From NCBI RefSeq assembly GCF_016903815.1, contig NZ_CP069973.1: a DNA stretch of 64,000 nucleotides; one strand, given 5' to 3'. The stretch comes from Escherichia coli (GTDB taxonomy: Bacteria > Pseudomonadota > Gammaproteobacteria > Enterobacterales > Enterobacteriaceae). A model generated the notes under the pieces. The model was not told the DNA's origin, did no database searches, and worked only from the letters and a program-made list of their open reading frames with translations. This document shows positions 4,866 through 35,533 of this stretch, one piece after another. The translations under genes were made by a program, and so were the position numbers. The first letter of the stretch is position 1. Each line of letters opens with the position of its first letter.

Positions 4866-4952
4866 GCTGAAAAACATAACCCATAAAATGCTAGCTGTAC
4901 CAGGAACCACCTCCTTAGCCTGTGTAATCTCCCTTACACGGGCTTATTTTTT
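4866..4952 (+). ncRNA. cyaR: CyaR (RyeE) Hfq-dependent sRNA; 3' terminator overlaps the prophage att core
   Basis: Sequence gctgaaaaacataacccataaaatgctagctgtaccaggaaccacctccttagcctgtgtaatctcccttacacgggcttatttttt recognised from memory as CyaR; ends in hairpin plus T-run. Confidence 0.8.
4926..4952. repeat. Prophage attachment-site core, left copy (aatctcccttacacgggcttatttttt)
   Basis: Exact 27-bp repeat also at 38117..38143. Confidence 0.8.
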
Positions 4953-5022
4953 ACGCGTAACACAATGAAATAAAAGGATTTATTTCTGGTCACGTCCACA
5001 CATTGACCACATCGACAAAAAA

Positions 5023-5042
5023 GCCCCTCGACTGAGGGGCTT
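5023..5042 (-). terminator. Rho-independent terminator downstream of ogr
   Basis: GC hairpin gcccctcgactgaggggc followed by a U-run on the minus strand. Confidence 0.6.
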
Positions 5043-5053
5043 CCTGTTTGTAA

Positions 5054-5272
5054 TTACATCCACATAATTTGCTGCCCTGACGGCAACGGGTGCGGTCTTA
5101 CGGCGTGGACTTCTCCCGGCTTCACGATGTATCGCTGTACCGACTCATAAGTGATGAATGTGGCGCTGCAATTCACGTTCTGACACTGGTGATAACGCTC
5201 TTTTGTCGTGTCAGTGATATAGCGGCTTGTACGCGCATGTGCGGCATGCTGGCATAAAGGACAATGAAACAT
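5054..5272 (-). CDS. ogr: Late-gene transcriptional activator Ogr (zinc finger)
   Basis: MFHCPLCQHAAHARTSRYITDTTKERYHQCQNVNC...: Cys4 zinc-finger typical of P2 Ogr / P4 Delta; start chosen at internal Met for ~72 aa. Confidence 0.85.
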   Translation of the reverse strand: MFHCPLCQHAAHARTSRYITDTTKERYHQCQNVNCSATFITYESVQRYIVKPGEVHAVRPHPLPSGQQIMWM

Positions 5273-5353
5273 CGCGAGCACCTCTTCCGGTTTTGTTGAT
5301 GGTGCCATTTTAGTTAATTTATCCTTATAAAACAAACAGATAAATAAATTACA

Positions 5354-6517
5354 TCACTCATCATCTTCTGTTTCGTACTCCACATCAGAAAGCCTGACCT
5401 CAAGCTCTAAGGACGTCGTGAAGCCGCTATTATTCAGAAAATGTGTCACCTTAGTGATTGTCCAGTCCTGCTCGTCTATGACGCGCTTAAAGCCTGATAC
5501 TTTAACCGGTGTTTCCGTGTAAATATCAGCACGACCGGTAGCCAGGCTGATGGAGAACTCCGCAACGCCCCGTTGCAGTTTATCCCACTTCGCCTGAGCG
5601 GCACGCATGGCCTGTGCTTTCGTGGCATATACCGTGGTCAGGGCAAAAACGTTGTCAGCCTCACCGGCCATGTATTCACCTTCGCGCGCTTCCGGTACTT
5701 TTGGCGCTTTCTTCTGCCTGACCGGTTTTGCTTTCGGGTGCTCCAGTGCGCGCAGGTGTTTTTCTTTCTTTTTGCGTTTCAGTTTTACCTTCTGCTTTTG
5801 CGGCTTCGGGTCTTTGGTGTGTAACCACTTTGCCGTTACGCCGGTATAGGCTCCACGGTCAGCAATCGCAAAATGATGGCGGTCGCCGTCGCTGCGGGTG
5901 ATGGTAATCTGCGGGATTTTTTTACCGCTGGCCGTCACCCCCTGCCCCGCTTTGAGAAACAGCAGTTTTCCCATTTTTACCGACACCTCACCGCCGTTGC
6001 GTTCTGCAAGACGGGTCAGGAATTTCGCATCAGACTCCTGCGACTGGTCGATGTGCGGGATTTTAATTCCGGCCAGTGACGGAGCGACACTGGCTTCCAG
6101 CCTGTTACGGGAGGCTATCGCCTCAACAATCGCACCGAGCGTGGTGTCATGCCAGGAGCCTTCCCGGCGGGAATTGAGCGTCCCGCGGAAATCTGCACTC
6201 CGGGCGCGGATGGTGACCACATCCGGCGCGCCCCGGTGTTCAACCTCATCAACGGTGAATTTCCCTTTGCATACCAGGGCAAAACCTTTCCAGCCGATAT
6301 ACACCGTCAGGACAGCGCCACGAACCGGCAGCCCGACCTGCCCGTCGGCATCGTTCAGTTCAATATCAAGCTGGTCAGCTTCAAAGCCCCGGTTATCCGT
6401 CAGAGTCATGCTCATCAGACGGTCGCTGATATTGCCGGTAATATCCCTGCTGTCGAGCATCAGCATGTAATCCGGCGTCAGCGTACTGCCTGCATCAAAT
6501 GTCAGCGCATCCAGCAT
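5354..6517 (-). CDS. D: Tail protein gpD
   Basis: 387 aa; size and position match P2 D; lysine-rich central linker. Confidence 0.85.
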   Translation of the reverse strand: MLDALTFDAGSTLTPDYMLMLDSRDITGNISDRLMSMTLTDNRGFEADQLDIELNDADGQVGLPVRGAVLTVYIGWKGFALVCKGKFTVDEVEHRGAPDVVTIRARSADFRGTLNSRREGSWHDTTLGAIVEAIASRNRLEASVAPSLAGIKIPHIDQSQESDAKFLTRLAERNGGEVSVKMGKLLFLKAGQGVTASGKKIPQITITRSDGDRHHFAIADRGAYTGVTAKWLHTKDPKPQKQKVKLKRKKKEKHLRALEHPKAKPVRQKKAPKVPEAREGEYMAGEADNVFALTTVYATKAQAMRAAQAKWDKLQRGVAEFSISLATGRADIYTETPVKVSGFKRVIDEQDWTITKVTHFLNNSGFTTSLELEVRLSDVEYETEDDE

Positions 6518-6996
6518 TATCCCGCCCCCATCATACCTGTGAATCTGGTCGCCAGACTGCCGGCCTTACCGATGAGCGACTCCGCCTGTTTACCGATATC
6601 GCCATAAAGCGCGGCCAGTGATTCATCAACGCGGGTGAGCGACAGCGTAAAATCAATTTTCCGGGGTGTGCCGTCTGCAAAGAAAATACTCCCTGTTTCA
6701 CTCACCTTGCTGATGACATACATACCGTAAATCATGCCGGTGCCATCCAGCAACGGCCACGCCCGGCCTTCCTCTGCCATCAGTCTGAGCGTGGTCATCG
6801 TCAGCTTGCCGCCGGTCAGTTCGGGATAAAGCACACCGGCAAGCGTGATGTTTTCCTCGCCCACACCGAGAAACTGAAAGGCATCCCGTTTACCGATACG
6901 GGAATTTGACGGCCAGCGATAATCTGATTCACGCTGCATGGTCTGGTGTGGCAGCGTCTGGCGCATAAAAACAAACATACCTAACGCGAGCATCAT
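6517..6996 (-). CDS. U: Tail protein gpU
   Basis: 159 aa; position between T and D. Confidence 0.85.
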   Translation of the reverse strand: MMLALGMFVFMRQTLPHQTMQRESDYRWPSNSRIGKRDAFQFLGVGEENITLAGVLYPELTGGKLTMTTLRLMAEEGRAWPLLDGTGMIYGMYVISKVSETGSIFFADGTPRKIDFTLSLTRVDESLAALYGDIGKQAESLIGKAGSLATRFTGMMGAG

Positions 6997-7010
6997 TTTT
7001 CGTCACCTCC

Positions 7011-9458
7011 TTAACCGTCATGCATCATGCTGGCACGGGCGCGCGCACGTTTATCCCGCTCGTATTTTTCGAGCGCATCCTGTAACTGGCGGTCGAGCTG
7101 AGTCCCCGGCGCAGTACCGCCCGTCAGACTGATGTGATATTCGTTTTTACTCTGGTCCACATAAGAGCGGCCAGCCGGTGCCGTAACCGGCTGATAAGCC
7201 TGATAGCCTGCATAAGAGCTGGTCGCCGGAATATAACCACCGGTGCCATACGTGGCGGCATGAGTTCTGGCGGCGGTCTGGTCAAGCGTGCCTGACTCTT
7301 TGTTGATAACACCGAGTTTTTCCAGTACCCAGTCAATACCGCTGCGCAGTTTGTTGAACGCATTAAGCGGCAGCATCAACGCGTCAGCCAGTGCCTGCCC
7401 GAACATGACGCCCGTATCACGGCAACGGTTCAGGGTGTCCCGGGTGGCTTTGACCGGGGCAATCAGGTTTTTAAACCACTGCCACGCGGCCTGTAACTTT
7501 TCGCCCAGCCAGTCAAACACCGGCTTAAGTGGCGTGAACAGTTCCCCCACCGGCGCAAATGCCGCTTTCAGCCCTTCAACCACACCGCCAAAGAATGCGC
7601 TGACAGGCTCCCAGTATTTACGGATAAGTAACGCCCCGGCGACAATGGCGGCCACCACGGCCACAACCGGCCAGCTAATCGCCCCGATGGCCGTCATAAC
7701 AGCACTGCCAACCGTCGTGAAGATTGCTCCCATTGCGCCTGCTGCCGCGATGATGGCATTGATGCCGGTGATAACCGGCCAGGCTACGAGGCCAATGGCA
7801 CCGATGACACCAATCAGTGCCAGTGCACCACCGACAATGATGCCGATGGTTAACGCCAGTGATTTGTTTTTCTGTATCCAGCCGTCGAGTTTTAACACAT
7901 ACTTTGTGGCCGTCTGCGTGAGCTTACGCAGTGCGCCTTCCTGCTGGTCAAACAGGTCAGTCCCCACCGCCTCATAAGCGGACTGAAACTCCTTAAAGTC
8001 ACCGCCGAGGTTGTCCTGCATGATATTTACCAGCTCGGCGGTCTTCCCGTCTGAGGCTTTAAACGCAGCGGTCAGTTTGTCCAGCTTTCCAGTTGAGGCG
8101 GCAGTCATCAGCACGGCGGCGGCTGAGCTGGCCTCCTCCCCGAAAATAGTTTTCATGTATTCAGCCTGCTGGGCAGTACCGAGCCGGTTTTTCTCAAAAC
8201 TGGCCTGCATTTCTTTCAGAATGGTAAATACTGGTCGAGTATTCCCTTTACTGTCTGAGGTTTTCACGCCAAGCTCTTTCAGTGCATCCCATGCTTTTCC
8301 CGTCGGTGCCTGCAGGCGGCTTAACACGGCACGGCTTCCCGTCCCCGCCATTGAACCGGTAATTTTTGCATCATGCAGCGCCCCGACCATTGCGGCGGTT
8401 TCTTCAATGCTGACACCAGCATTTTTTGCCACAGGTGCGGCATAGGTCAGCGCATCGCTCATGCCATCAAAATCGGCGGCGGTTTTGTTCATCGTCATGG
8501 AGAGAACATCCCCGATATGAGCGACCTTATCGTTTGAAAGCTGAAAGGCGGATTTCATCCCCATCAGCAGGGCGGCGTTTTCTTCCATCGTGCGACGGTT
8601 CGCCAGCGCCATATTCAGCGTGACCGGCGTTGCCGCCTGAATGGCATCAACATCCCCACCGGCTTTCGCAATAATAATCTGCGCACCGGCTGCATCATCT
8701 GCCGAGGCTGCGGTATTGTTGCCGAGCTGGCGCGCCTGCTTGCGTAGTGCAGCCATTTCGGCGGAGTCTTTTGCCACACCGAGCACAGCCTGCAATTCTG
8801 AGTTTTTCTGCGCAAACTCATAACCGGGCATCAGCAACTTAACTCCGGCCATCGTTCCCGCAGCAGCAATCCCCACACCGGCAGCGCCCACCGAGGCCAT
8901 ATTTCCGGCCAGTTCCTTTCCGGCCTGATAACGCTGTTTTACTGCGTTAAGTTTTGCCTGTTGTGCACTGACACGCGCCAGCGCGTCACGCTGACGGTTA
9001 AGCTGTGCGGTGGTTTCACTGATACGGTTTTTCAGTCCCTGCTCATCATGTGCAAGATTGCGGGTATTAATTCCCACAGCGGCCAGTTCCCGCTGCTGGC
9101 GTTTAATGGAATCTGTCAGGCGGTTATATTTCGCCTGTAAGTCCTCCGCCGCACGCTTTGCGGATTCCAGCACTTTCGCCTGAGCACGGGTCGGACGTTC
9201 GGTATTTTTAAACTGTGTGGCAAGGGCTTCGGCCTCCTGCCGAGCCTTTTCAAGTGCATGACCAGTCACGGCGAGCTGTGCACTGGTCTTGCGGAATCCC
9301 TCAATACGGGATGCCTGACCGTTCAGCTCGCGCAGTGATTTTTGTGTTTCCCGGATATCCCCCGACAGCGATTTGCTCGCTGTGCGGATGGATTTAAACG
9401 GGCGGGATGCCTGGTCAACAGCCCTGAGCAATACCTGTAATTTTACATTGTTACTCAT
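7011..9458 (-). CDS. T: Tail tape measure protein gpT
   Basis: 815 aa; long coiled-coil N-terminus, Gly/Ala-rich hydrophobic central region. Confidence 0.9.
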   Translation of the reverse strand: MSNNVKLQVLLRAVDQASRPFKSIRTASKSLSGDIRETQKSLRELNGQASRIEGFRKTSAQLAVTGHALEKARQEAEALATQFKNTERPTRAQAKVLESAKRAAEDLQAKYNRLTDSIKRQQRELAAVGINTRNLAHDEQGLKNRISETTAQLNRQRDALARVSAQQAKLNAVKQRYQAGKELAGNMASVGAAGVGIAAAGTMAGVKLLMPGYEFAQKNSELQAVLGVAKDSAEMAALRKQARQLGNNTAASADDAAGAQIIIAKAGGDVDAIQAATPVTLNMALANRRTMEENAALLMGMKSAFQLSNDKVAHIGDVLSMTMNKTAADFDGMSDALTYAAPVAKNAGVSIEETAAMVGALHDAKITGSMAGTGSRAVLSRLQAPTGKAWDALKELGVKTSDSKGNTRPVFTILKEMQASFEKNRLGTAQQAEYMKTIFGEEASSAAAVLMTAASTGKLDKLTAAFKASDGKTAELVNIMQDNLGGDFKEFQSAYEAVGTDLFDQQEGALRKLTQTATKYVLKLDGWIQKNKSLALTIGIIVGGALALIGVIGAIGLVAWPVITGINAIIAAAGAMGAIFTTVGSAVMTAIGAISWPVVAVVAAIVAGALLIRKYWEPVSAFFGGVVEGLKAAFAPVGELFTPLKPVFDWLGEKLQAAWQWFKNLIAPVKATRDTLNRCRDTGVMFGQALADALMLPLNAFNKLRSGIDWVLEKLGVINKESGTLDQTAARTHAATYGTGGYIPATSSYAGYQAYQPVTAPAGRSYVDQSKNEYHISLTGGTAPGTQLDRQLQDALEKYERDKRARARASMMHDG

Positions 9459-9878
9459 TCGTGTTTCCGCTTCGCCGGAGCGCCTTTTCGCGCCATGTGA
9501 TGAGTTCGGTCAGGCTCATGGGATACAGTTCTGATGGCGGCCAGTGAAATATCACTGCCACATCCGCCATCAGGTCATCGACCGACAGATTTTTTGGAAA
9601 CGTCACTGCACCGAGTTCGGCGACAAAAAACCGACCACCTTACCGGCCAGCGCCACAAGGTCAGGCAGTTCCAGCGCGGCGACTTCCTGCTCGGTCAGCA
9701 TCGGTGCCGTCATGCGCGGCAGCACCTTAATCAGTGCATCGACTTCAGAGTTCGCGACCGCTGCCAGACTGACACCGCGCAGCGTCCCGGCATTGGGTTT
9801 CATCAGCGTGACCTGTTCGATAACCTGCTCACCACGCTTGACCGGATTGTCCAGGGTAATCACATTTTCTTTGTTCAT
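9451..9878 (-). CDS. Tail assembly chaperone E+E' (programmed -1 frameshift product)
   Basis: Slippery T_TTT_TTG on minus strand (plus coords 9624..9630) with E codons TTT/TTG in the zero frame; -1 frame traced by hand to a TAA at 9451..9453, overlapping the gpT start. Confidence 0.65.
9603..9878 (-). CDS. E: Tail assembly chaperone gpE
   Basis: 91 aa; position between FII and T; slippery heptamer near 3' end. Confidence 0.85.
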   Translation of the reverse strand: MNKENVITLDNPVKRGEQVIEQVTLMKPNAGTLRGVSLAAVANSEVDALIKVLPRMTAPMLTEQEVAALELPDLVALAGKVVGFLSPNSVQ

Positions 9879-9934
9879 GGTTTTCTCACTTCTGAATCGG
9901 GGTTAACCGGTCAGCCAGGCTGACCGGATGAAAA

Positions 9935-10453
9935 TCACAGGCCGATATTGCGGCGGTGTTGCTCCAGCCGGTCGACGCCGTTCACCTTCTCAATCATGTT
10001 GATGGTGTCGATTTCGACCAGCTCCTTACCGTCCATCGTCAGCCGGAAATAGGTGCAGACCACGGAGATTTTCGACTCGGTATCTTCTCCCTGTTTGCCC
10101 TCGCCGGTGTCGATTTCTTTCTGACGTCCACGCATGACCACCTCGACGGCCACCGTTTCGCCGGTATCGTCGCGCTGGTAAGAGCCTGCAAAACGAATCG
10201 GTACGGAATCCACACCGGTTGCGGCGTAAAGCTCCCAGATAACCGAATCCGGGAAGCCACCGAGCGACCACTCCATTGACAGCGCATCGTCATCAAGGCC
10301 GAGGTCTACCGGTGCGCTGCCGTTCATCCCCGCACCGCGATAGTTTTCGAGCTTACGGGTCAGTTTTGGTAGCGTGACGGACTTCGCGACGCCCTGATAG
10401 CTGTAGCCGTTCAGAAAGACGTTCATTAACTTGAGTTTGCGCGGCATTGCCAT
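9935..10453 (-). CDS. FII: Tail tube protein gpFII
   Basis: 172 aa; size and position. Confidence 0.85.
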   Translation of the reverse strand: MAMPRKLKLMNVFLNGYSYQGVAKSVTLPKLTRKLENYRGAGMNGSAPVDLGLDDDALSMEWSLGGFPDSVIWELYAATGVDSVPIRFAGSYQRDDTGETVAVEVVMRGRQKEIDTGEGKQGEDTESKISVVCTYFRLTMDGKELVEIDTINMIEKVNGVDRLEQHRRNIGL

Positions 10454-10465
10454 CGGTCAGGCTCC

Positions 10466-11656
10466 TTAATTGCTGTTAACCGAGGTGACCAGATTTGCCA
10501 GGTATTTATCGGTAATACGCTGGCGCAGGGTCAGGTTTTCAAGAGGAGGCACCGGTGTATAGTCGTAGTCGATATACAGTTTTCCGGCCTTGAGGGTTTC
10601 CGCATCGTTGGATTCTTCGCTGAACCAGCAGGTCGCATCCACGATATAGCCGTTTGTTTTCAGCTCACGGAATTTGGCATTGATGCCGTCAACGATGTCG
10701 CGAATCAGCGTTGCGGTGATGGGCTTGTCCACCGCCCACATGTGCGCCTCAGCCATCGTGTCGGCCATCACCTGCGCGGTGCGGGTGTAGTTTTCAAAGA
10801 GGAACAGCGGGTCATCAGAGCAGGTACGGTTACCCCAGAATCGGAAACCGTCGCGGCGAATCAGCGTAGTGACGCCTGACTCGTTAAGCAGGTCAGCATC
10901 GGTGCCGGACTCCTGCAAATCCCAGAATACAGATGCGCTGATGCCGGTAACACCGTTTACCCCGACGTTGGACAGCGTTTTATGCCAGCCCTGCTCCTGG
11001 TCGATTTTAGCGCGCAGACCCAGCGCACGGGCGGTGGCATACGCGGTGGCGGTGGTACTGGTGACCGTATCCCATGCGAGGAAATCCGGCCAGATGACCA
11101 TCAGCTCACGCTGGCTGAAATTCTGGCGGTAGGCTTTCACCTCGGAAATGGTCTTACAGCTCCATGCGCTGATATATCCGAAAGCGCGCAGCTTCTGACA
11201 GACGGATGCCAGTGCAACTGCCACCTCTTTGGTATCCAGTCCCGGCACACCGAGAATACGCGGTTTAACACCGGTTACCGACTCCGCCGCCAGCAGGGCT
11301 TTTAGTCCGGTGTACTGACCGTTTTCGTCGGTGGTGCCGATGATATTGGAAACGGTCTGCGCGAGTTTCGTTTCCTCGTCGTCGCCGGTGCCGTCTTCCA
11401 CACGCACGACTACGGTGACCGGTTTTGACTGGTCAGCGATGGCCTGCAACGACGCCGCCAGCGTGCCTTTTTTACCGGCCTTTGCAATTGCGCTCTGCAC
11501 ATTGGTAATCAGCACCGGTTTATTGAGGGGGAAGATTTCCGCATCCGCATCGCTGGCCGTGCAGACCATGCCGACAATGGCGGTGGATACGGTGGAAATG
11601 ACGCGGGTGCCGTCGTTAATCTCCAGCACCTGCACGCCATGATGATAGTCGCTCAT
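10466..11656 (-). CDS. FI: Tail sheath protein gpFI
   Basis: 396 aa; size and position. Confidence 0.9.
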   Translation of the reverse strand: MSDYHHGVQVLEINDGTRVISTVSTAIVGMVCTASDADAEIFPLNKPVLITNVQSAIAKAGKKGTLAASLQAIADQSKPVTVVVRVEDGTGDDEETKLAQTVSNIIGTTDENGQYTGLKALLAAESVTGVKPRILGVPGLDTKEVAVALASVCQKLRAFGYISAWSCKTISEVKAYRQNFSQRELMVIWPDFLAWDTVTSTTATAYATARALGLRAKIDQEQGWHKTLSNVGVNGVTGISASVFWDLQESGTDADLLNESGVTTLIRRDGFRFWGNRTCSDDPLFLFENYTRTAQVMADTMAEAHMWAVDKPITATLIRDIVDGINAKFRELKTNGYIVDATCWFSEESNDAETLKAGKLYIDYDYTPVPPLENLTLRQRITDKYLANLVTSVNSN

Positions 11657-11985
11657 CCGTTTAACTCCGTGGTTAATGGGTGCAACTATTTTCTGTTGGG
11701 CAGTGCATGAGACGCCATTTGACCTGGCTGGTCAGTGGATGAAACAACAGATAAAGAAAATGCGGGCAATTCGCCCGCCTGTCCTGATTTGCACACACTC
11801 ATTTTCCGACTGACAGTTTACATAGCCCAAAAGTTATCAAATCTGACAGTCTGCTTTGAGCAAGAAGCGGACATTTGCCTGTCAGGGTATATGCCGCTCT
11901 GTGGTTATTATCCAGAATCAATAATTCATCTGAGTTGGATGACATATAAAACATAGTTACTCCATGAATAACCATTAGCAGATTA

Positions 11986-12579
11986 TCAATTATGTAAATC
12001 TTTTGTTTTATGTTCTTTAGCGTATTGTGACAACAAATGGCTATAGCGTTTAAGCAAAATATTAGAAAGATTAAGCTCATTCATGAAGTGTTCTTCTAAT
12101 AAGTAACCATCAATATCAACTTTAATATCATTACCACTTTTCATCTTCTGTAACGTAGATTTCACACGCTCCAGCAGGATGCTTTGCTCATGGTAATAGT
12201 CCATAAGAAGAGTAACATCCTCTTTATCAAGCTTACTTAATTCGCTGAAGTAGGATTTAAACACTTTATCAGTCTGGTTTAATGCAATCTGTAAGCGAGG
12301 CCCCCCTAATGATTTGACATTAATGGCAAAAGGCTCGCCAACAAAATGCTCCGAATTTTCGTCAAAGCCAATATATCTCGTTTTATCAAGAAAAGTGAGA
12401 GCGCGATGGTTATTAGCGATTTCATATGCAAACATTGTTCTGATACTGTCCCTCTCAGCCTCCATGCTTATATCATCACGGTGATTTGTATAAAATATAT
12501 TTCCAACAAAGAGAACCATAGCAAGAATCACTGAACTTGCCTCCCAGTTAATATTTTTAAATCGTCGCTTAGTAAACAT
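11986..12579 (-). CDS. AT-rich cargo gene at the Z/fun locus: membrane-anchored protein of unknown function
   Basis: 197 aa; N-terminal TM helix (SSVILAMVLFVGNIFY) then charged soluble domain; lies between G and FI where P2 carries Z/fun; visibly AT-rich. Confidence 0.6.
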   Translation of the reverse strand: MFTKRRFKNINWEASSVILAMVLFVGNIFYTNHRDDISMEAERDSIRTMFAYEIANNHRALTFLDKTRYIGFDENSEHFVGEPFAINVKSLGGPRLQIALNQTDKVFKSYFSELSKLDKEDVTLLMDYYHEQSILLERVKSTLQKMKSGNDIKVDIDGYLLEEHFMNELNLSNILLKRYSHLLSQYAKEHKTKDLHN

Positions 12580-12800
12580 ACCGCACCTTAATTATCAAAA
12601 ATATTCCTTCAGTGTTATCTGGTTAGCCTAAACCAAGTCATTAAAGTCCGCAGGATATCATATACATAAAATGTATTGATTAGAATTTGCACTAATAAAA
12701 TAATGCTTTACTGAAATCTACTCCAGACATAGAGCGGCCTGTCAGATTAGGCTTTACTCTGTGCCATAGATATGTAATCTCACACCAGAGCTTATACAAC

Positions 12801-13328
12801 TTATTGCGGCATTTCCGGCCATTCAGGATTTACAGGATCCACACGGCTGACCAGAACGCTGTAGCGTTCCCATGACTCCAGTCGTGCACGTTCCTCATCC
12901 GTCGCCATATTCAGCCTGACAGCGCGTTCCAGTGGCTGAATAACGCTTTCCGCTTCGGAAAGTAATGCGGCCTTTTGTGATTCTGCCTGTTGTTGCTGTT
13001 CATCTGCCGTATAAATCCGTTTAACCACAGCACCATCCTTAAACATCCATTTACCTGAGTCGTCAGCACGTCGGTTGGAGGTAATATCAGGAACCTCAAC
13101 AACGCTAAAACCTTCAGGGTTAAGCGTTGAAGCATCTCTGGTGATAGCGACAATAATATTATTTTCATCGTAAACAATCTTTATTGTGTCTGGCTGAAAG
13201 TTCTTCACTTCCTCATACCAGTTTTTTCCATCCTCAGAGTAAAGCCAGATAACTCCGTGTTTCTTTGTTAACTCATACTGTTCCAGTGTTTTAGCGTTAC
13301 CCGCTTTTATGTTCTTTAAGTGCATCAT
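12801..13328 (-). CDS. G: Tail fibre assembly protein gpG
   Basis: 175 aa; immediately downstream of H. Confidence 0.85.
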
Positions 13329-13329
13329 A

Positions 13330-15351
13330 TTAAACGCTCGCTACATTATACCAGGTGCCATTTATATACTTTTGAACGGGTCTGTAATAAACGCCCGCTA
13401 TATTATCGGCAGAGTTGGACCCTGTATCCTGAACATTAATACCAGACAATACATGACCTGACGGGCACTGGAAATTCCATGTTTGCCAGTTGTTCACTCC
13501 ATAATATTGCTGTGAACCAAGTCGAACATCTTTCACATATCTGGAATCAAAATTGCCATAGTTGCCAGGAATAACTTGCGAGCCACAAAGCCAGTTACCG
13601 TTATTATCCATGTACGCCTGACCATCGGTGCCATTGGCTGTCCTTGAGTTATTAATCATGTAGATGCCAAATTGCTTGTTCCCCAGTCCACCTATCATGA
13701 ACTTGCGGTCAGCGTGATTCTGGCGAAGCAACGCCTGAGCGCTATCAGTGTTAACTATATTTTTCCCAAAGATAGCGTTGTTATCGCGCATCTGAATCCA
13801 CATACCATTACTGCTGTTAATAGCAAAACGGTCTGAAAGCGTCTCCCCTGAAACATTAAGGCCACGCCCCATCGAAACAGCGCCAGTAGCGTTATTAATC
13901 CATAATGGCCTTAATCCGTTATAAGTCCCCATGTTGTCACCGGAGTTTGTCAACATGAAGTATGTATTTGAACCATCATTACGAATAAAGAATCCGTAAT
14001 TACCATAAGCAATACGTAGGCCGTTTGCTGATTTTGATATGACTTCGCCATTTACAATGGCATTGACAAGAACATACAAAGCATCCCATTTAAGATTCAT
14101 CAGGTCTTTTGTTGTAGTACTCTGGCGGCTTCTCCATTTGAAATATTCATTGCCGTTATCCCCCGTTTCAAACCACATGAATGAATCAGTGTCACCATCG
14201 GCATCATTTTTAAATCCAATCTTCGCCCAGTCAGTATTTCGAATCCAGGCAAGGATTGAGTCGTTTTCAAAAGTAAGTCCACCGGACAAGGTATCGCCAT
14301 TTTTTTGCACGGCGTTCCCGGCTCGGTTTACCGTTTCCTGTAAACCGAGATATTCGATAACGGCGGCAACGGTCGATTTAGCCAGAATATCCCGCCCGAC
14401 TTTTGTCAGGGTTGCCAGGCTGGCAACATCATTCCCCATAAAATACGGAAACCTGTCTGCCGCAGTAGCAAGCCCCGCCAGTGCCGTCAGGGTGGCATCT
14501 TTCGGTTGCTTCCCCGCAAGCGCATTAGTCATGGTGGTAGCAAAATTCGGGTCATTGCCCAGCGCCGCCGCCAGCTCGTTCAGCGTATTCAGTGCGTCAG
14601 GCGACGAGTCTACAAGGGCGGCAATCGCGGCCATAACGAAAGCCGTGTTTGCGATCTGAGTATTATTCGTTCCCTGTCGCGCAGTTGGCGTCGTTGGCGT
14701 TCCGGTCAGTGCAGGGCTGTTTAATGGCGCTTTCTTGTTCGTTTCATCCATTACCGTCTTAACGGCTTTCGGCGTTGCAGCCAGTGTTTCAGACGTGCTG
14801 TTGGTCGCACTGCTTAACTGAGTAAAACCTTTTGCGGTCAGCGAGGCGTCAGGGTGACGTCGTGACTGTTCATGTTCTGCAATTTTGTCATCAACGTAAT
14901 CCTGCGTCGCCATCACCGTTGTGGTGTCGATGGTCAGATCCACTGAGGCCACACTGCTGACGATAATGACCATGCGGCAGGTCTGCGAACGTCCTGAGCC
15001 TTCGGCAAGGGCTGGCTTATAACTTTCGGCCATGTTCGCCACGGCAATTAACGTTCCTGCATCATCGTACAGGCCAAGCTCACGCATCCAGAAACCGCCC
15101 ACCTCCGGCGGAATAACCAGCTCTGCGATAATATAATTACTGTTTCGTTTGTCCTGGCTGATTTTGTTCAGCGCATGTCGCCAGACTTCGTGGATAAGCC
15201 CGGTCTGTCCGGCATCCGGGACAGGCAATTTACCACCGCCATCCCCGACGGCCATCGTGGTAATGTTGACCTTCCGCCCTCCCGGCGCGGTTGCCGCTGC
15301 CAGCTTTGCTGCACCGGCAGTGGTGATAACGGTTTTGAATTTTGTGCTCAT
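13330..15351 (-). CDS. H: Tail fibre protein gpH
   Basis: 673 aa; conserved N-terminus ([21 protein letters not shown]), Ser/Thr/Asn-rich distal domain. Confidence 0.9.
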
Positions 15352-15361
15352 TATTCCTCAC

Positions 15362-15892
15362 TTATCCGGGGTAAACCGTAATTACATCGCCGTCATAAGC
15401 CACACCACCGGCAAACAGGTAGCCGGGAATGTCCCGGGTAATGTTCAGACCAATAAGGTGGCGGCTTGCAGGTTTGGCATCAGCAATCAGCCGTTCCATT
15501 TCCTGATACATTGCCTCTGTGATGCCGCTTTCCAGTACACCAATATCAAGCCGGAAGGTGCCGGGCGGGTCACTGTTTTCCCACCACTCCGTCACGTTGA
15601 TGAGATAGCCGAGCGGCTCCACCACACGCCGGATTGCACCTATTGTGCCTTTATGACAGTGGATGAAATACGCATCGCGGATAACGGCGCGTTTTGTCGC
15701 TTCCGGCCACTTTTCATCCCACCTGTCGACCGAAAACGCCCACGCCAGCCACGGCAGCAGATTTGCCGGACAGGTGTCCGGGTTCCACAGCTCACGAATA
15801 CTGACCGGCGTTTTTTCAATTTCCGCACAGGCTTTTGCGGCGGCGACCTCAAGCGGTGATGAGCCGGTCGGCAGCAGTCGCGAATCACTCAT
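15362..15892 (-). CDS. I: Baseplate protein gpI
   Basis: 176 aa; position. Confidence 0.85.
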   Translation of the reverse strand: MSDSRLLPTGSSPLEVAAAKACAEIEKTPVSIRELWNPDTCPANLLPWLAWAFSVDRWDEKWPEATKRAVIRDAYFIHCHKGTIGAIRRVVEPLGYLINVTEWWENSDPPGTFRLDIGVLESGITEAMYQEMERLIADAKPASRHLIGLNITRDIPGYLFAGGVAYDGDVITVYPG

Positions 15893-16793
15893 CCGAGCCT
15901 CCGGTCACGACGCGGTATTCGGTACAGAAAGACGCCTGCGTACTGTTGAGCACGATGTCGGCCAGTGGTGCAGCCAGTTCGACACGCTGCACACCTTCCA
16001 CATGCAAAGCGGCATAAATGGCAGACAGACGGATGTCGCGCCCCAGCCGGTGCTGTGCCGTGATATACGCTTCCAGCTTTTTCACAGCGGCAGCGCGGAT
16101 GGGTTCGCTTTCGGGACCAGGGTAAAGGTAAAGCGTGGCGTTTATCTGGTATTCAACGATGGCGGCAGACTGCACGGTCACGCGGTCGGCCACCGGCCTG
16201 ACGTCCTCGCCATTAAGGGCGTTACGCACCACAGCCAGCAGGTCTTCGGATGCGACGCCGTTATTTTCACGTGACAGCACAGAGATGGTGACACAGGCAG
16301 GAGACGGACTGGTGACAGAAATATCCGCGACACGCCCGTCAGCACTGCGACCATGATACTGATAGGCTCCCACTGACCCGGCGACGCTTAAGCCCTCAAA
16401 AGCCTGCTGAATACGCAGACGATAATCGGTGTCAGATTCCATCACTGCCGGTGTCGGTGGAATGGTCGAATCATCTGCCGGGGTGATAGTCAGGCGCGTG
16501 GTGTTGTAATTGGCACCAATCACATCAAGGTCATTACCGGCGGCACAGGCCAGCATCACCGCCCGTGCGGCCTCATTCACACGCTGACGCCAGATAAGCT
16601 CACGATAAGCATTTTCTTCCAGCAGTTTGACGAGAGGCTCAGATTCCAGTGTCAGGGTACGGGCGACCGCCTCCTGCTGATCTTCCGGGTAAAGGGAAAT
16701 CAGTGTCGCCTTGCGTTCAGCGAGAATGCTTTCAAAGTCCAGCTCCTCGACCACATCTGGTGCGGGTAGCTGGTTCAGGTCGATAATCGGCAT
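15885..16793 (-). CDS. J: Baseplate protein gpJ
   Basis: 302 aa; position. Confidence 0.85.
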   Translation of the reverse strand: MPIIDLNQLPAPDVVEELDFESILAERKATLISLYPEDQQEAVARTLTLESEPLVKLLEENAYRELIWRQRVNEAARAVMLACAAGNDLDVIGANYNTTRLTITPADDSTIPPTPAVMESDTDYRLRIQQAFEGLSVAGSVGAYQYHGRSADGRVADISVTSPSPACVTISVLSRENNGVASEDLLAVVRNALNGEDVRPVADRVTVQSAAIVEYQINATLYLYPGPESEPIRAAAVKKLEAYITAQHRLGRDIRLSAIYAALHVEGVQRVELAAPLADIVLNSTQASFCTEYRVVTGGSDE

Positions 16794-16797
16794 GGTT

Positions 16798-17145
16798 TCA
16801 ACTCACAGGGATGGTTAATGAAAGTGGCTGGCCGGTGTCGTTGTGCTGGCCGGTTAACGTGACCGTCATTCGCCCGTCAAAACTGCGCTCAGTGGTGACG
16901 GATGACAGGGTGACGCGGGGTTCCCATTTCAGCACCGCCATGTAACAGGCGACCTTAATCTGCAACTCAAGCGCCGGGGTCTGCGGCTGGTCAATCATTG
17001 ATGCCAGCAACGAGCCGTAATCACGACGCATCACCCGTGAGCCGACCGGTGTGCGCAGGATATCGCCGATACTCTGGCTGATATGCTCAAGGTCAGTGAC
17101 AGTCAGGCCATCACTGCGATTCATTCCGAGATAACGCGCTGTCAT
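16798..17145 (-). CDS. W: Baseplate protein gpW
   Basis: 115 aa; position. Confidence 0.85.
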   Translation of the reverse strand: MTARYLGMNRSDGLTVTDLEHISQSIGDILRTPVGSRVMRRDYGSLLASMIDQPQTPALELQIKVACYMAVLKWEPRVTLSSVTTERSFDGRMTVTLTGQHNDTGQPLSLTIPVS

Positions 17146-17771
17146 AAAGGACTCCCGGTTGTGCCGCCGCTGTCGCCGGGGTGTTTGTGGGTATGCAGTA
17201 CCTTACCGTTTGATGAGAGTTCACCGCCGGTGTGTTCAATGTTGCCGCGCATCGTCCCGCCCTTCTGCACTTCCAGCGTGCCGGTAGTCAGTTTGTTAGT
17301 GCAGACCACTTCTGGTGTGTCCAGGGTGACGCGGGTTGATGCTTTCACCGTGACCACTGGTACCGTGGCAGTAACAGAATCAGAAGCCGTCACGCTGGCC
17401 GTTTTAATTCCGCTTACCGTGAGTGCACTGGTTTCAGGTTCATACTCAATCACCGCCCCGTCAGGGAAACGGATATGCAGGGCATCCGCCGACGCAGACG
17501 GCGCAGGGTTATCGCCGGAATAAATCCCCGGCAGAACGAACGCCGTGTCGAGTTCACCGCCCACGGCCAGAATCAGCACCTGTTCCCCCACGGAAGGTGC
17601 CCACCATGTGCGCGAACGCCCAGCGCGATGGGTCAGCCACTGAAGCCAGTCGGTGCACATGCCGCCAGTCTGCACACGGCAGCGACCGGCATTAAGGTCG
17701 GTTTCGACGATAATGCCAGTGCGAATCATATTGCGTATAAAGCGAAGAATTTCATTGTATTGTGCATTCAT
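17142..17771 (-). CDS. V: Baseplate spike/assembly protein gpV
   Basis: Start chosen at MNAQYNEILRF for a P2 V-like length; the upstream ATG at 17849 is an alternative. Confidence 0.8.
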   Translation of the reverse strand: MNAQYNEILRFIRNMIRTGIIVETDLNAGRCRVQTGGMCTDWLQWLTHRAGRSRTWWAPSVGEQVLILAVGGELDTAFVLPGIYSGDNPAPSASADALHIRFPDGAVIEYEPETSALTVSGIKTASVTASDSVTATVPVVTVKASTRVTLDTPEVVCTNKLTTGTLEVQKGGTMRGNIEHTGGELSSNGKVLHTHKHPGDSGGTTGSPL

Positions 17772-17857
17772 TCGATAATAATGATTCTGTACAATCTCGA
17801 AGTAAATCACACCACGATTTCTGGTGCACAGAACAACAAGGGACAACAAAATCCATT

Positions 17858-18931
17858 ATGAGTACTTACTTTTTCTCGTCAGAAACAATGAAAGAATTGT
17901 TCAAAGATTATCTGGTCTTTTTGAACACGCTGACTCCCAGCACAAACTTTGAATCAAACAGAAACAAAATAATTGCTCAAGCAATAAACTTCATTTCCGA
18001 AAACCCTGAAGATTGGGACAAAAAATCCCAGTACAACATTGCTATGATTGGCGACACCTTTAAAAGTTTCTTAAGAGAAAAGGGGGAAGATAACAACAGC
18101 ATCAACCTTATATTCACTTGCTTTTTTAGATTTATCATTGAACCAAGCATTCTCTCTCCGGAAATAGAGTCTCACTTTTCACCACTAAGAACCATCAAGG
18201 ATTTTGCTCTGTATAACTATAATGAATTCGATGAGCGGAGCAGAGCACAGATAGACTTTTCTCTTAGAGAACTGCCATTAGCAATGGTTAAAGAAGTTTT
18301 AAGCTCCAGCAATGTTGACACATATAAAAAATACATTGATAGTTTAAACGAAGGGCGTCAATTTTTCGAAAAGTGCGACTCCTTCTTAAAGGAGCAACAT
18401 GCCAAAATAGAGTCAATTAAAGAGTCATTAAAAGGGTATGAGGTCGCATTTAATTTTGTTGGATTGTTTGATGGCTTTAATTCACTTGGCAAAAAGAAAG
18501 AAAGTGAAATCATGCTATCAAGAATAATTCTTATCATCTTGGCTATAATCATTCCCTCCCCGCTGATATACTATGGAATGCATAAATTACCAACTCTCGA
18601 AACGACAAATGCTGCCACATATTTTATGTCAGCACTACCTTTTGCATCAGTTACATTGATTTTCATGTATTACTTTAGAGTTGTACTGATAAATCATATA
18701 TCGTTACGAACTCAGATTATGCAAATAGAACTCAGAAAGAGCCTTTGTCAGTTCATTCAGAGTTATAGCGACTATTCCTCAGAGATAAGGAAAAACAATC
18801 CGGAAGCGCTTTCAAAATTCGAAGACGTAGTATTTTCAAACATCATGCTATCCGATGATAAGATACCATCTACATTTGATGGCATTGAGCAAATAGCATC
18901 GTTAATCAATTCATTAAAAAATGGAAAGTAA
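17858..18931 (+). CDS. AT-rich cargo gene at the orf30 locus: protein with two C-terminal TM helices, unknown function
   Basis: About 357 aa from MSTYFFSSETMKELF; soluble N-terminal domain, two hydrophobic helices (IMLSRIILIILAIIIPSPLIYYG; AATYFMSALPFASVTLIFMYYF); opposite strand to flanking tail genes; own terminator. Confidence 0.65.
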   Translation: MSTYFFSSETMKELFKDYLVFLNTLTPSTNFESNRNKIIAQAINFISENPEDWDKKSQYNIAMIGDTFKSFLREKGEDNNSINLIFTCFFRFIIEPSILSPEIESHFSPLRTIKDFALYNYNEFDERSRAQIDFSLRELPLAMVKEVLSSSNVDTYKKYIDSLNEGRQFFEKCDSFLKEQHAKIESIKESLKGYEVAFNFVGLFDGFNSLGKKKESEIMLSRIILIILAIIIPSPLIYYGMHKLPTLETTNAATYFMSALPFASVTLIFMYYFRVVLINHISLRTQIMQIELRKSLCQFIQSYSDYSSEIRKNNPEALSKFEDVVFSNIMLSDDKIPSTFDGIEQIASLINSLKNGK

Positions 18932-18936
18932 TGATA

Positions 18937-18959
18937 AAAGGCCAATAACTGGCCTTTTA
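18937..18959 (+). terminator. Rho-independent terminator after the orf30-locus cargo gene
   Basis: Hairpin aaggccaataactggcctt followed by T-rich run. Confidence 0.6.
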
Positions 18960-19033
18960 TTTATTAACATGAAAATTCAAAATAAATTATGCTAATCAAT
19001 TGATTTCTATCTTATATTCTCAGATGATTAAAT

Positions 19034-19486
19034 CTAACGATTCAGGTGAGCCAGGATAATCTCTTCAATCATCTGCACATCCTCACCGGTAAAGCCAAGC
19101 AGAGGACGCGCCGGATAATCAATTTTCTTACCGTCTTTCCGGGTTTCTTCCGACAGACCGAACTGATGCACACTGGCGATTTTCGGTGACTTCCCGCCGT
19201 AAAACTCCATTGATGCCTGTTCAGGGCTGGCGCGGATATGCAAAAAACGACTGGTGATAAGTTTCGCAAACATTTTTCGCTTAACGCGACCGGTCTTTTT
19301 TCTGGCGCTCTGCTGCTGGCGTGGTGCGTAGGGTGTGCCGTCCGGGGCTTTCTGTGCCATCACCCGACGCTGCTGACTCTGCCGCAGACGTTTCGCCAGT
19401 TCTGCACTCAGTCGCCGACGCCCAGACGGTGACAGCGATTCAATCAGTCCGGTCAGCCGGTCTTCAAAACGCTTAAACTCATTCAT
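19034..19486 (-). CDS. S: Tail completion protein gpS
   Basis: 150 aa; position. Confidence 0.85.
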   Translation of the reverse strand: MNEFKRFEDRLTGLIESLSPSGRRRLSAELAKRLRQSQQRRVMAQKAPDGTPYAPRQQQSARKKTGRVKRKMFAKLITSRFLHIRASPEQASMEFYGGKSPKIASVHQFGLSEETRKDGKKIDYPARPLLGFTGEDVQMIEEIILAHLNR

Positions 19487-19946
19487 CCCACTTGCTCACC
19501 AGTTCACCATTGATATAAAGCTCCATCGGGCGATTGACTGGCTCCGGCGGCGGAGGTTCCGGGATATTCTTCACATGCAGCGCACCGTCAACCTCACTGA
19601 CCAGCGTTCGCTCGGTCAGCATCAGGCTGATGCTGATATCAAAGCTGCTGTCATTGTTGATGTCTGCATAAAACGTGAAACCTTTTTTCTGACCTTCGTC
19701 GGTGGTCATGATGTCGGGCTGATTTTCCCGCAGCCACGCCAGCACCGGCACGATGAGCAGGTCAAAATCACCGGTAAAGTCGGTCACAATCACATTGAGC
19801 GTGTAACGCTTTTCGAACGACAGCGACGTCGCCAGCGTGGAGGCAATACTCCCGTTATCCACGAATATCCGCAGCATCTCTGGACTGGTTTTCAGCACCG
19901 TGACGGCATCAGTCAGCGCCCTGCGCAGGCTGTCGGGTTTGAGCAT
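19479..19946 (-). CDS. R: Tail completion protein gpR
   Basis: 155 aa; position. Confidence 0.85.
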   Translation of the reverse strand: MLKPDSLRRALTDAVTVLKTSPEMLRIFVDNGSIASTLATSLSFEKRYTLNVIVTDFTGDFDLLIVPVLAWLRENQPDIMTTDEGQKKGFTFYADINNDSSFDISISLMLTERTLVSEVDGALHVKNIPEPPPPEPVNRPMELYINGELVSKWDE

Positions 19947-20199
19947 CGTTTTCGTCCTGACAGTGTTTAATCATTTTTACCTGGCTGGCACAACGTGCCA
20001 GCGCGTTCTCAAGCTGCCGGATATCGGCACTTAAATCGCCGTTCGTCTCCGGGTCACTGCCCGGCATCGGGCAAAGGCTCACTTTCGGGCAGGCGTTGGC
20101 GACAATCACTGGCGTCGGTGCAGGCGGGGCGCTGGTGCAACCGGCGCACAGCATCAGGCAGGTCAGCACCATACCAGCGGCGAAAATCTTCGTTTTCAT
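19909..20199 (-). CDS. lysC: Lysis lipoprotein LysC (Rz1-like outer-membrane spanin)
   Basis: MKTKIFAAGMVLTCLMLCAGC lipobox signal, Pro-rich; embedded out of frame within lysB. Confidence 0.7.
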   Translation of the reverse strand: MKTKIFAAGMVLTCLMLCAGCTSAPPAPTPVIVANACPKVSLCPMPGSDPETNGDLSADIRQLENALARCASQVKMIKHCQDENDAQTRQPAQGAD

Positions 20200-20892: not shown

Positions 20893-20906
20893 GGTGTTTA
20901 CTCCGT

Positions 20907-21685: not shown

Positions 21686-21688
21686 GCG

Positions 21689-21889: not shown

Positions 21890-21891
21890 CA

Positions 21892-22398: not shown

Positions 22399-22500
22399 CA
22401 TGACTACCTCTGAAAAGTCGGGCGGTGGACGCCGGTGCAGTGTCAGGTGATTCACCCTCACTGACCGGCGTGCCGCCCTGGCGCGGGGCGCATTCGGTTG

Positions 22501-23244: not shown

Positions 23245-23247
23245 CGG

Positions 23248-35503: not shown

Positions 35504-35533
35504 TTAAGTGCGTTAAAAACTCTGGTTAATTAC

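What the first reader, a model, noticed from the sequence alone, without database searches (positions are those of the whole stretch)
9451..9878. Conserved programmed -1 ribosomal frameshift site for tail chaperones E and E+E'
On the coding (minus) strand the heptamer T_TTT_TTG (plus coords 9624..9630) lies about 18 nt upstream of the gpE stop with TTT/TTG in the zero frame. The -1 frame, traced by hand, stays open to a TAA at 9451..9453 and overlaps the gpT start, giving an E+E' product of about 142 aa. This is known P2 biology and supports a functional tail module.
Basis: partly seen in the sequence, partly recalled or inferred. Interest (0 to 1): 0.2.

Follow-up and report, generated by a model that had tools for sequence, protein, structure and literature searches.

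The report
P2 tail-chaperone E/E+E' frameshift site
This is the well-known programmed -1 ribosomal frameshift site of a P2-like prophage of E. coli, which makes a short and a long tail-assembly chaperone from one start codon; it is intact here but ordinary.

Summary
On the minus strand, gpE runs 9878..9603 (91 aa). The heptamer T_TTT_TTG lies at 9630..9624 with TTT/TTG in the zero frame, 18 nt before the TGA. The -1 frame stays open to TAA 9453..9451, overlaps the gpT start (ATG 9458) by 8 nt, and gives a 142-aa fusion.

The 461-nt region is about 98% identical to reference phage P2. The heptamer and about 120 nt on each side are identical, and P2 annotates E, E+E' and the -1 shift at the equivalent base.

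The -1-frame extension matches Pfam Phage_P2_GpE (E = 1.2e-21). It is the frame under purifying selection, and it holds 8 of the 15 invariant residues of the fusion across 16 divergent Peduoviridae.

All 18 divergent relatives examined keep an in-frame X_XXY_YYZ heptamer at the homologous place. Fourteen have T_TTT_TTG; the rest have other shifty heptamers.

No downstream stimulatory structure is present. The heptamer alone is not enriched, and the bare ORF arrangement is not unique in the window; homology and conservation carry the case.

Verdict: already known, and found in about 29% of complete E. coli genomes. It sits in an intact FI-FII-E-T-U-D operon of a P2-like prophage. Low interest.

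The parts
9603..9878 (-). gene E: zero-frame product gpE, 91 aa, a tail assembly chaperone
   Evidence: ORF and translation. Pfam PF10109 Phage_TAC_7, 47 bits against a cut-off of 25. PHROG 103 'tail protein', 2.6e-45. Ortholog of P2 E, 19430..19705.
9624..9630 (-). slippery heptamer T_TTT_TTG (X_XXY_YYZ); zero-frame codons are TTT (Phe84) and TTG (Leu85)
   Evidence: Offset and frame computed. Identical to the P2 site, whose frameshift is annotated at 19685, the base after the G. Invariant in 77 of 77 P2-like IMG/VR loci. In frame at the homologous position in 14 of 18 divergent Peduoviridae examined; the other 4 carry other X_XXY_YYZ heptamers.
9451..9878 (-). E+E' frameshift product, 142 aa. 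On the P2 convention it is join(9878..9624, 9624..9451), with G9624 read twice.
   Evidence: 142 aa; residues 104-139 match PF06528 Phage_P2_GpE, E = 1.2e-21. Same 428-nt span as P2 E+E', 19430..19857.
9451..9623 (-). E' extension, encoded only in the -1 frame; stop TAA at 9453..9451
   Evidence: Translation. Among 65 haplotypes, substitutions are 11 synonymous to 9 non-synonymous in the -1 frame, against 4:16 and 2:18 in the other two frames. Eight of the 15 invariant residues of the fusion (A105, D106, F111, E125, W129, R130, A133, R136) lie here across 16 divergent phages.
7011..9458 (-). gene T, tape measure protein, 815 aa; its ATG (9458..9456) overlaps the end of E+E' by 8 nt
   Evidence: ORF. 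PF10145 PhageMin_Tail, 1.5e-45. Same length and same 8-nt overlap as P2 T, 19850..22297.
9935..10453 (-). gene FII, tail tube protein, 172 aa, immediately upstream of E
   Evidence: PF04985 Phage_tube, 3.8e-60. Same length as P2 FII.
9634..9642 (-). Shine-Dalgarno-like TAAGGTGGT, 3 nt upstream of the heptamer; a candidate modulator with untested function
   Evidence: Predicted duplex with the 16S rRNA 3' tail of -8.1 kcal/mol, the strongest 9-mer in the E ORF. Similar elements recur upstream of the site in relatives but at variable spacing (0-15 nt), so the result is suggestive only.

Best explanation
This is the E/E+E' recoding site of a P2-like (Peduovirus) prophage of E. coli.

Most ribosomes translate gene E in the zero frame and stop at TGA 9605..9603, which gives the 91-aa chaperone gpE. 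A minority slip back one nucleotide on T_TTT_TTG. The figure is about 10% in P2 from my memory of Christie et al. 2002. The Atkins 2016 review says 2-3 times lambda's efficiency, which I take to be about 3% from lambda's 30:1 product ratio in the same review.

At the slip, peptidyl-tRNA-Phe re-pairs from UUU to the overlapping UUU. Either tRNA-Leu on UUG moves with it, or the A site is filled only after the slip. The ribosome then continues in the -1 frame to TAA 9453..9451, giving the 142-aa gpE+E'.

By homology with P2 and analogy with lambda gpG/gpGT, the shared E part coats the tape measure protein gpT. The rarer E' domain is thought to recruit the tube protein, so the fixed E : E+E' ratio supports assembly of a tail of the correct length.

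Shown here: sequence anatomy, orthology to P2, protein-level conservation of the -1 frame, conservation of a shifty heptamer across the family, and absence of a downstream structure.

Inferred or taken from the literature: that the shift happens, its efficiency, and the chaperone mechanism.
For: - Anatomy is exact.
- The region is about 98% identical to P2 over 461 nt. The heptamer and about 120 nt on each side are identical, and P2 annotates E, E+E' (a 2-piece join) and the -1 frameshift site there.
- Pfam: E matches PF10109 (TAC_7) and the -1-frame extension matches PF06528 (P2_GpE), E = 1.2e-21. The neighbours are tube (PF04985) and tape measure (PF10145).
- 424 phage records encode a homolog of the fusion. 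In 401 of them a single place covers at least 80% of it, and nearly every row shown is two tblastn pieces, as a two-frame gene would give.
- All 18 divergent Peduoviridae loci examined (window and P2 included) have an in-frame X_XXY_YYZ heptamer at the homologous position. Fourteen are T_TTT_TTG; the others are T_TTT_TTT, T_TTT_TTC, C_CCT_TTC, A_AAT_TTT and G_GGA_AAG. Heteropolymeric heptamers fit tRNA slippage and do not fit polymerase stuttering.
- In 12 of 16 divergent loci the -1 frame has no ATG/GTG/TTG between the heptamer and the conserved core, so E' can only be reached from E.
- Purifying selection switches from the E frame (37 syn: 3 nonsyn) to the -1 frame (11:9, against 4:16 and 2:18) downstream of the E stop. 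Most invariant residues of the fusion lie in E'.
- Literature: TTTTTTG, 91 aa and 142 aa, and no downstream structure in P2 (PMC3091744). P2 efficiency is 2-3 times that of lambda, and the G/GT chaperone model is described (PMC5009743).
Against: - Nothing in the sequence argues against it.
- No expression data exist for this prophage. Whether it is inducible is unknown.
- No canonical stimulator is present. The 50 nt downstream fold no better than shuffles (z = +0.68), and there is no conserved structure.
- The SD-like element lies only 3 nt upstream. From my knowledge of dnaX/RF2 studies, that spacing is not the one that stimulates -1 shifts.
Confidence: 0.93

Rival explanations
1. Transcriptional slippage. 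RNA polymerase stutters on the T6 run and inserts one extra U (or deletes two) in a fraction of the mRNAs. Standard translation of those mRNAs then gives the fusion.
For: The site is a homopolymer run. A +1 U transcript would encode ...GFFVAELG..., the sequence produced by T7 DNA variants seen in public assemblies. Protein length alone cannot tell the two mechanisms apart.
Against: From my own knowledge of the slippage literature (Wagner 1990; Baranov 2005), a run of six T is shorter than the runs of about 8-9 or more that give efficient slippage by E. coli RNA polymerase. Relatives use heteropolymeric heptamers at the same place (C_CCT_TTC, A_AAT_TTT, G_GGA_AAG), which cannot support stuttering but fit tandem tRNA slippage. 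The literature treats P2 as ribosomal frameshifting.
Confidence: 0.03
2. No recoding. E' is an independent small gene, a 51-aa ORF at 9606..9451 starting at GTG, as RefSeq/PGAP annotates it ('GpE family phage tail protein').
For: A GTG lies in the -1 frame 17 nt after the heptamer. Many genome records annotate a separate short CDS there.
Against: In 12 of 16 divergent relatives no ATG/GTG/TTG exists in the -1 frame between the heptamer and the conserved core, and where one exists its position is not conserved. The in-frame shifty heptamer is conserved instead. As I recall Christie et al. 2002, fusion-polypeptide analysis showed E' is translated as an extension of E; that paper is not held in the library, and it is cited.
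Confidence: 0.02
3. The site is intact but silent. The prophage is cryptic or defective elsewhere, so the frameshift is a frozen relic that is never used in this strain.
For: No expression data exist. Three cargo hot spots and the end of gene A differ from P2. Prophages often decay, and public assemblies contain E-E' genes with run-length changes or internal deletions.
Against: The prophage aligns to P2 from one end to the other, about 4926..38202. All F-operon genes have full P2 lengths at 96.6% identity, and no structural gene was seen to be truncated. The divergent blocks are known variable cargo positions of P2-like phages (own knowledge).
Confidence: 0.1

Closest known systems
Bacteriophage P2 genes E and E+E' (NC_001895 19430..19857; Christie, Temple, Bartlett & Goodwin 2002, J Bacteriol 184:6522)
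   Same: Same genes, lengths (91 and 142 aa), heptamer TTTTTTG, 18-nt distance to the E stop, 8-nt overlap with T, and neighbours FII and T. About 98% nucleotide identity, with the heptamer and its flanks identical.
   Different: About ten scattered substitutions, nearly all at third codon positions. One amino-acid difference in E (N29 here, S29 in P2).
Phage lambda gpG/gpGT and the conserved tail-assembly-chaperone frameshift of long-tailed phages (Levin 1993; Xu, Hendrix & Duda 2004, 2013, 2014)
   Same: Two overlapping ORFs between the major tail/tube gene and the tape measure gene. A -1 shift near the end of the first ORF gives a minor long product with the same N-terminus. The proposed role is chaperoning the tape measure and recruiting tube subunits (PMC5009743).
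E. coli dnaX and IS911-type -1 frameshift sites
   Same: An X_XXY_YYZ heptamer decoded by bacterial ribosomes, giving two products from one start.
   Different: Those sites use a downstream hairpin or pseudoknot 5-9 nt away and an SD-like element 10-14 nt upstream (own knowledge). Here there is no downstream structure, and the SD-like element lies only 3 nt upstream.

Membership tests
P2-type gpE / gpE+E' pair (Peduoviridae) | The first ORF belongs to the E/41/14 tail assembly chaperone family (PF10109). | tested here: met
   47 bits against a gathering score of 25, residues 7-85.
P2-type gpE / gpE+E' pair (Peduoviridae) | The -1-frame extension belongs to Phage_P2_GpE (PF06528). | tested here: met
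   76.3 bits against a gathering score of 23, E = 1.2e-21, residues 104-139 of the fusion. PHROG 1756 and PHROG 6416 also match.
P2-type gpE / gpE+E' pair (Peduoviridae) | An in-frame X_XXY_YYZ heptamer near the 3' end of E, with the -1 frame open to the start of the tape measure gene. | tested here: met
   T_TTT_TTG at 9630..9624; -1 frame open for 58 codons to TAA 9453..9451; 8-nt overlap with T.
P2-type gpE / gpE+E' pair (Peduoviridae) | Gene order FI - FII - E/E' - T - U - D. | tested here: met
   ORFs and Pfam hits. One colinear block with P2 17433..24382.
P2-type gpE / gpE+E' pair (Peduoviridae) | Two products are actually made (E and about 10% E+E'), and both are essential for tail formation. 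| not testable with these tools
   Known for P2 only from the literature (Christie 2002 not held).
Tail assembly chaperones of long-tailed phages (lambda G/GT type) | The chaperone fold of solved tail assembly chaperones (for example HK97, PDB 2ob9). | tested here: inconclusive
Tail assembly chaperones of long-tailed phages (lambda G/GT type) | Binds the tape measure protein; the long form binds the tube protein; both are absent from mature virions. | not testable with these tools
   Described for lambda (PMC5009743). Inferred here by position and homology.
Stimulated bacterial -1 frameshift sites (dnaX / IS911 type) | A stable hairpin or pseudoknot 5-9 nt downstream of the heptamer. | tested here: not met
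   The 50 nt downstream give z = +0.68. The only notable hairpin (9572..9532) starts 52 nt downstream. The consensus fold of 13 relatives has 3 pairs and no covariation.
Stimulated bacterial -1 frameshift sites (dnaX / IS911 type) | An SD-like element about 10-14 nt upstream of the heptamer. | tested here: inconclusive
   TAAGGTGGT is present at -8.1 kcal/mol, but 3 nt upstream. Relatives show enrichment (Fisher p = 1.4e-4 if the loci were independent, which they are not), with spacing of 0-15 nt.
Transcriptional slippage sites | A homopolymer run long enough for polymerase stuttering (about 8-9 or more), with homopolymers conserved in relatives. | tested here: not met
   The run is T6. Relatives carry C_CCT_TTC, A_AAT_TTT and G_GGA_AAG at the same place.

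The most novel reading that the evidence does not exclude
The Shine-Dalgarno-like element just upstream of the heptamer (TAAGGTGGT, 9642..9634) is the strongest anti-SD match in gene E. [quoted passage not shown] It could be a previously undescribed 5' modulator that sets the E : E+E' ratio through mRNA-16S rRNA pairing, in a site otherwise thought to lack stimulators. At 3-nt spacing it would more likely dampen than stimulate the -1 shift.
Probability: 0.12. Interest if true: 0.3.

Novelty: already known. Interest (0 to 1): 0.07.

Why it matters
It matters only for annotation quality. RefSeq/PGAP records usually split this gene into 'phage tail assembly protein' and a separate 51-aa 'GpE family phage tail protein' CDS. 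Automated pipelines therefore under-report the fusion.

An intact site, together with full-length FI, FII, T, U and D, supports calling the prophage tail module potentially functional. It adds no new biology. The same locus at 95% identity or more is present in about 29% of complete E. coli genomes (1586 of 5426).

Tried and rejected
1. **Heptamer enrichment.** TTTTTTG occurs 28 times against 23 expected. The motif by itself is uninformative.

2. **Mechanical uniqueness.** Six sites in four mechanical ORFs in the window share the bare arrangement, so the arrangement alone proves nothing. The other five sites were not examined further.

3. **Downstream stimulatory RNA.**
   - The 100-nt fold gave z = -2.5, driven by a hairpin at 9572..9532 that starts 52 nt after the site. 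That is too far to act as a stimulator.
   - The first 50 nt gave z = +0.68.
   - RNAalifold on 13 relatives gave 3 pairs with no covariation.
   - Rejected for this window.

5. **NCBIfam.** No model matched E or the fusion.

6. **A database protein that looked like an annotated frameshift product.** I first took the exact 142-aa protein P0001 ('GpE family phage tail protein') as evidence that the frameshift product is annotated. Its DNA has a T7 run, in draft assemblies where the sheath, tube or tape measure genes are also broken. It is best explained as a homopolymer sequencing error, so I dropped it as evidence.

7. **The primary paper.** Christie et al. 2002 (PMC135442) is not held in the library. 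Its content is cited second-hand or from memory.

8. **The plasmid search.** only showed that P2-like tail modules also occur on plasmid records.
Full report
**1. The observation**

On the minus strand, the ORF 9878..9603 encodes a 91-aa protein ending ...GKVVGFLSPNSVQ*. TTTTTTG occupies 9630..9624. Its offset in the gene is 248 (248 mod 3 = 2), so the zero-frame codons are GGT TTT TTG, which is T_TTT_TTG in X_XXY_YYZ register.

- Six codons (18 nt) separate the heptamer from the TGA at 9605..9603.
- After a -1 shift the frame stays open for 58 codons to TAA 9453..9451, and the product is 142 aa.
- The +1 frame closes after 16 codons.
- The next gene, an 815-aa tape measure protein, starts at ATG 9458..9456 and overlaps the E+E' end by 8 nt.

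Every coordinate and number in the finding is correct.

**2. Is it more than chance?**

Not on the motif. TTTTTTG occurs 28 times in the window against 23 +/- 4.8 expected.

Not on bare geometry either. A mechanical scan of all ORFs of at least 80 aa found 128 in-frame X_XXY_YYZ heptamers. Six of them, in four ORFs, lie in the last 30 codons with a -1 frame that runs at least 40 codons beyond the stop. The case rests on homology and conservation.

**3. What it is**

The 801-nt region is 98.5-98.9% identical to many Peduovirus P2 isolates. Over 461 nt it is about 98% identical to the reference P2 genome, and no difference lies within about 120 nt on either side of the heptamer.

The reference P2 genome annotates E (19430..19705), E+E' (19430..19857, a two-piece join, 'shares amino terminus with gpE; -1 frameshift; essential tail protein') and 'site of -1 translational frameshift' at 19685, the base after the heptamer's G. 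Lengths and overlaps are identical to the window.

Pfam places the surrounding genes as follows:

| Gene | Pfam family | Score |
|---|---|---|
| E | PF10109 (tail assembly chaperones E/41/14) | 47 bits |
| -1-frame extension | PF06528 (Phage P2 GpE) | E = 1.2e-21 |
| upstream gene | PF04985 (tail tube FII) | 3.8e-60 |
| downstream gene | PF10145 (tape measure) | 1.5e-45 |
| further upstream and downstream | sheath, gpU and gpD families | above cut-offs |

A blastn of whole P2 against the window shows a P2-like prophage from about 4926 to 38202 in minus orientation. The complete F operon (P2 17433..24382, including the pF promoter region, ogr and the attP arm) forms a single block at 96.6% identity. 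FI, FII, E, T, U and D all have exactly the P2 lengths.

The locus is common. 1586 of 5426 complete E. coli genomes carry it, nearly all at 95% identity or more.

**4. Comparative evidence that the -1 frame is expressed through the heptamer**

*Close relatives.*
- Among 77 P2-like IMG/VR loci (64 distinct 428-nt haplotypes), the heptamer is invariant and all give a 142-aa fusion.
- In the E-only part, substitutions are 37 synonymous to 3 non-synonymous in the E frame.
- Downstream of the E stop, the -1 frame is the best preserved: 11:9, against 4:16 and 2:18 for the other two frames.

*Distant relatives.*
- tblastn of the fusion finds 424 phage records. In 401 of them a single place covers at least 80% of the query, and nearly every row shown is two pieces, as a two-frame gene would give.
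- I fetched 16 divergent loci with 35-80% fusion identity. Hosts were Klebsiella, Erwinia, Yersinia, Burkholderia, Salmonella, Ralstonia, Pseudomonas, Zymomonas, Vibrio, Mannheimia and E. coli.
- With the window and P2 this makes 18 loci, and all 18 have an in-frame X_XXY_YYZ heptamer at the homologous column. Fourteen are T_TTT_TTG. The others are T_TTT_TTT, T_TTT_TTC, C_CCT_TTC, A_AAT_TTT and G_GGA_AAG.
- The distance to the zero-frame stop varies from 15 to 66 nt, so the nearby stop is not itself a conserved signal.
- In an alignment of 16 fusions, 8 of the 15 invariant residues (A105, D106, F111, E125, W129, R130, A133, R136) lie in the -1-frame part.
- In 12 of the 16 loci in that scan there is no ATG/GTG/TTG in the -1 frame between the heptamer and this conserved core. 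The only general route into E' is from E.

The heteropolymeric heptamers in some lineages fit tandem tRNA slippage and cannot support polymerase stuttering.

**5. Mechanism**

Established knowledge for P2:
- The shift occurs at TTTTTTG and gives the 91-aa E and the 142-aa E+E'. No downstream structure is present (PMC3091744, citing Christie et al. 2002 and Xu, Hendrix & Duda 2004).
- Efficiency in P2 and its relatives is 2-3 times that of lambda (PMC5009743). From memory of Christie et al. 2002, the figure is about 10%, and both products are essential.
- In lambda, gpG and the G part of gpGT bind the tape measure protein, the T domain binds the major tail subunit, and neither protein is in mature virions (PMC5009743).

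I infer the same logic here. Many gpE molecules and a few gpE+E' molecules coat gpT, and E' recruits the tube protein FII.

My own tests for stimulators:
- The 50 nt after the heptamer fold no better than shuffles (z = +0.68).
- A hairpin at 9572..9532 exists, but it starts 52 nt downstream and lies in conserved coding sequence.
- The consensus fold of 13 relatives has 3 pairs and no covariation.
- Four other lineages (Fels-2, FLC5, the Zymomonas plasmid and E. coli phage 520873) have their own candidate hairpins 5-9 nt downstream, with z from -1.9 to -3.3.
- Upstream, TAAGGTGGT (9642..9634) is the strongest anti-SD match in the whole E ORF, at -8.1 kcal/mol and with a 3-nt spacer. The 20 nt upstream of the heptamer tend to hold the best SD-like element of the ORF in relatives as well. 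The median rank is 0.15, and Fisher p is 1.4e-4 if the loci were independent, which they are not. Spacing ranges from 0 to 15 nt, so this is suggestive only.

The identity of residue 85 is not fixed by the sequence. The curated Wphi product reads GFLVAELG, which is the tandem-slip form with Leu. A P-site-only slip, or an extra U in the mRNA, would give GFFVAELG.

**6. Structure**

An AlphaFold model of the fusion built from the 16-sequence alignment is confident (pLDDT 89.6, pTM 0.78).

- Foldseek against PDB found nothing significant.
- A sequence search of PDB found nothing.

This is consistent with a chaperone fold but falls below the usual threshold.

**7. Rivals**

- *Transcriptional slippage.* Disfavoured by the short run and by the heteropolymeric heptamers in relatives.
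- *Independent initiation of E' at GTG 9606*, as RefSeq annotates it. Disfavoured by the absence of a conserved start codon and by the P2 experiments.
- *A silent relic in a defective prophage.* This cannot be excluded without induction data, but no defect was seen in the F operon.

**8. A correction to my own first reading**

The database protein identical to my 'GFFV' fusion (P0001) is not an annotated frameshift product. Its DNA has seven T's, in draft assemblies where neighbouring tail genes are also fragmented. It is most likely a homopolymer error. Other in-frame fused ORFs (P0009, P0022 and others, reading 'GFVAELG') have four T's.

**9. Verdict**

This is textbook P2 biology, orthologous and essentially identical to the experimentally characterised site. 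Novelty: already known. Interest: low.

Noticed in passing
window 4926..38202: The finding lies in a complete-looking P2-like prophage in minus orientation. It is colinear with NC_001895 at 91-98% identity, except at the cargo positions, part of the tail fibre gene H/G region and the 3' end of gene A.
   Followed up: partly
window 28427..32441: The P2 tin/old position carries AT-rich non-P2 cargo (GC about 0.35-0.39). It holds a 474-aa GHKL-type ATPase (HATPase_c_3) at 28597..30021 (+), a 330-aa PF20553 'Methyltransf_35' protein at 30018..31010 (+), and a 385-aa C-5 cytosine DNA methylase at 30961..32118 (-) (PF00145; PADLOC MTase_II, 5e-100). It is a possible restriction-modification-like or defence cassette.
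   Followed up: partly
window 11871..12728 and 17735..19029: The P2 Z/fun and orf30 positions are replaced by AT-rich inserts. They encode a 197-aa ORF (11986..12579, -) and a 389-aa ORF (17762..18931, +). Neither has a Pfam or PADLOC hit.
   Followed up: partly
L101-L104 (Logan SRR23384629 and sister runs), L108; proteins P0009, P0015, P0017, P0020, P0022, P0063: Public assemblies hold in-frame fused E-E' genes in which the T6 run is T4 (GGTTTTGTC). The product reads 'GFVAELG' and there is no separate gpE, in otherwise intact FI-FII-E-T-U clusters. This could be a real two-base deletion in a clonal prophage or a sequencing artefact. The near-identical contigs also differ from each other by 1-2 gaps.
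   Followed up: partly
L105-L107 (NCBI draft assemblies), protein P0001: A 142-aa 'GpE family phage tail protein' identical to the Phe85 version of the fusion comes from a T7 run. In two of the three assemblies (L106, L107) the sheath, tube or tape measure genes are also fragmented, so it is most likely a homopolymer error that mimics the frameshift product.
   Followed up: yes
window 9451..9606 and L099: RefSeq/PGAP annotates E' as a free-standing 156-nt CDS ('GpE family phage tail protein') starting at GTG 9606, rather than as a ribosomal-slippage join. Several phage records do the same with different start points.
   Followed up: yes
window 9634..9642 (-): A Shine-Dalgarno-like TAAGGTGGT lies 3 nt upstream of the heptamer and is the strongest anti-SD match in gene E. 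SD-like elements recur upstream of the shift site in relatives at 0-15 nt spacing. The enrichment is suggestive but is not robust to relatedness among the loci.
   Followed up: partly
window 9532..9572 (-): A stable hairpin (arms CUGAUGGCGG / CCGCCAUCAG) starts 52 nt downstream of the heptamer, inside the conserved DDLMAD...HWPPSE coding stretch. It accounts for the z = -2.5 of the 100-nt fold. It is too far away to be a canonical frameshift stimulator and shows no covariation.
   Followed up: partly
L088 (Fels-2), L089 (Burkholderia FLC5), L095 (Zymomonas plasmid), L097 (E. coli phage 520873): These relatives have their own candidate hairpins starting about 5-9 nt after their heptamers, with z from -1.9 to -3.3. 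They may be lineage-specific 3' stimulators that P2 and the window lack.
   Followed up: no
window 34203..34209 (-), 15811..15817 (+), 27971..28031 (+): The mechanical scan flagged five other in-frame shifty heptamers near ORF ends with long open -1 frames. One of them is GGGTTTT followed by a 603-codon -1 frame in the gene A region. They probably reflect ordinary overlapping or antisense ORFs and were not examined.
   Followed up: no
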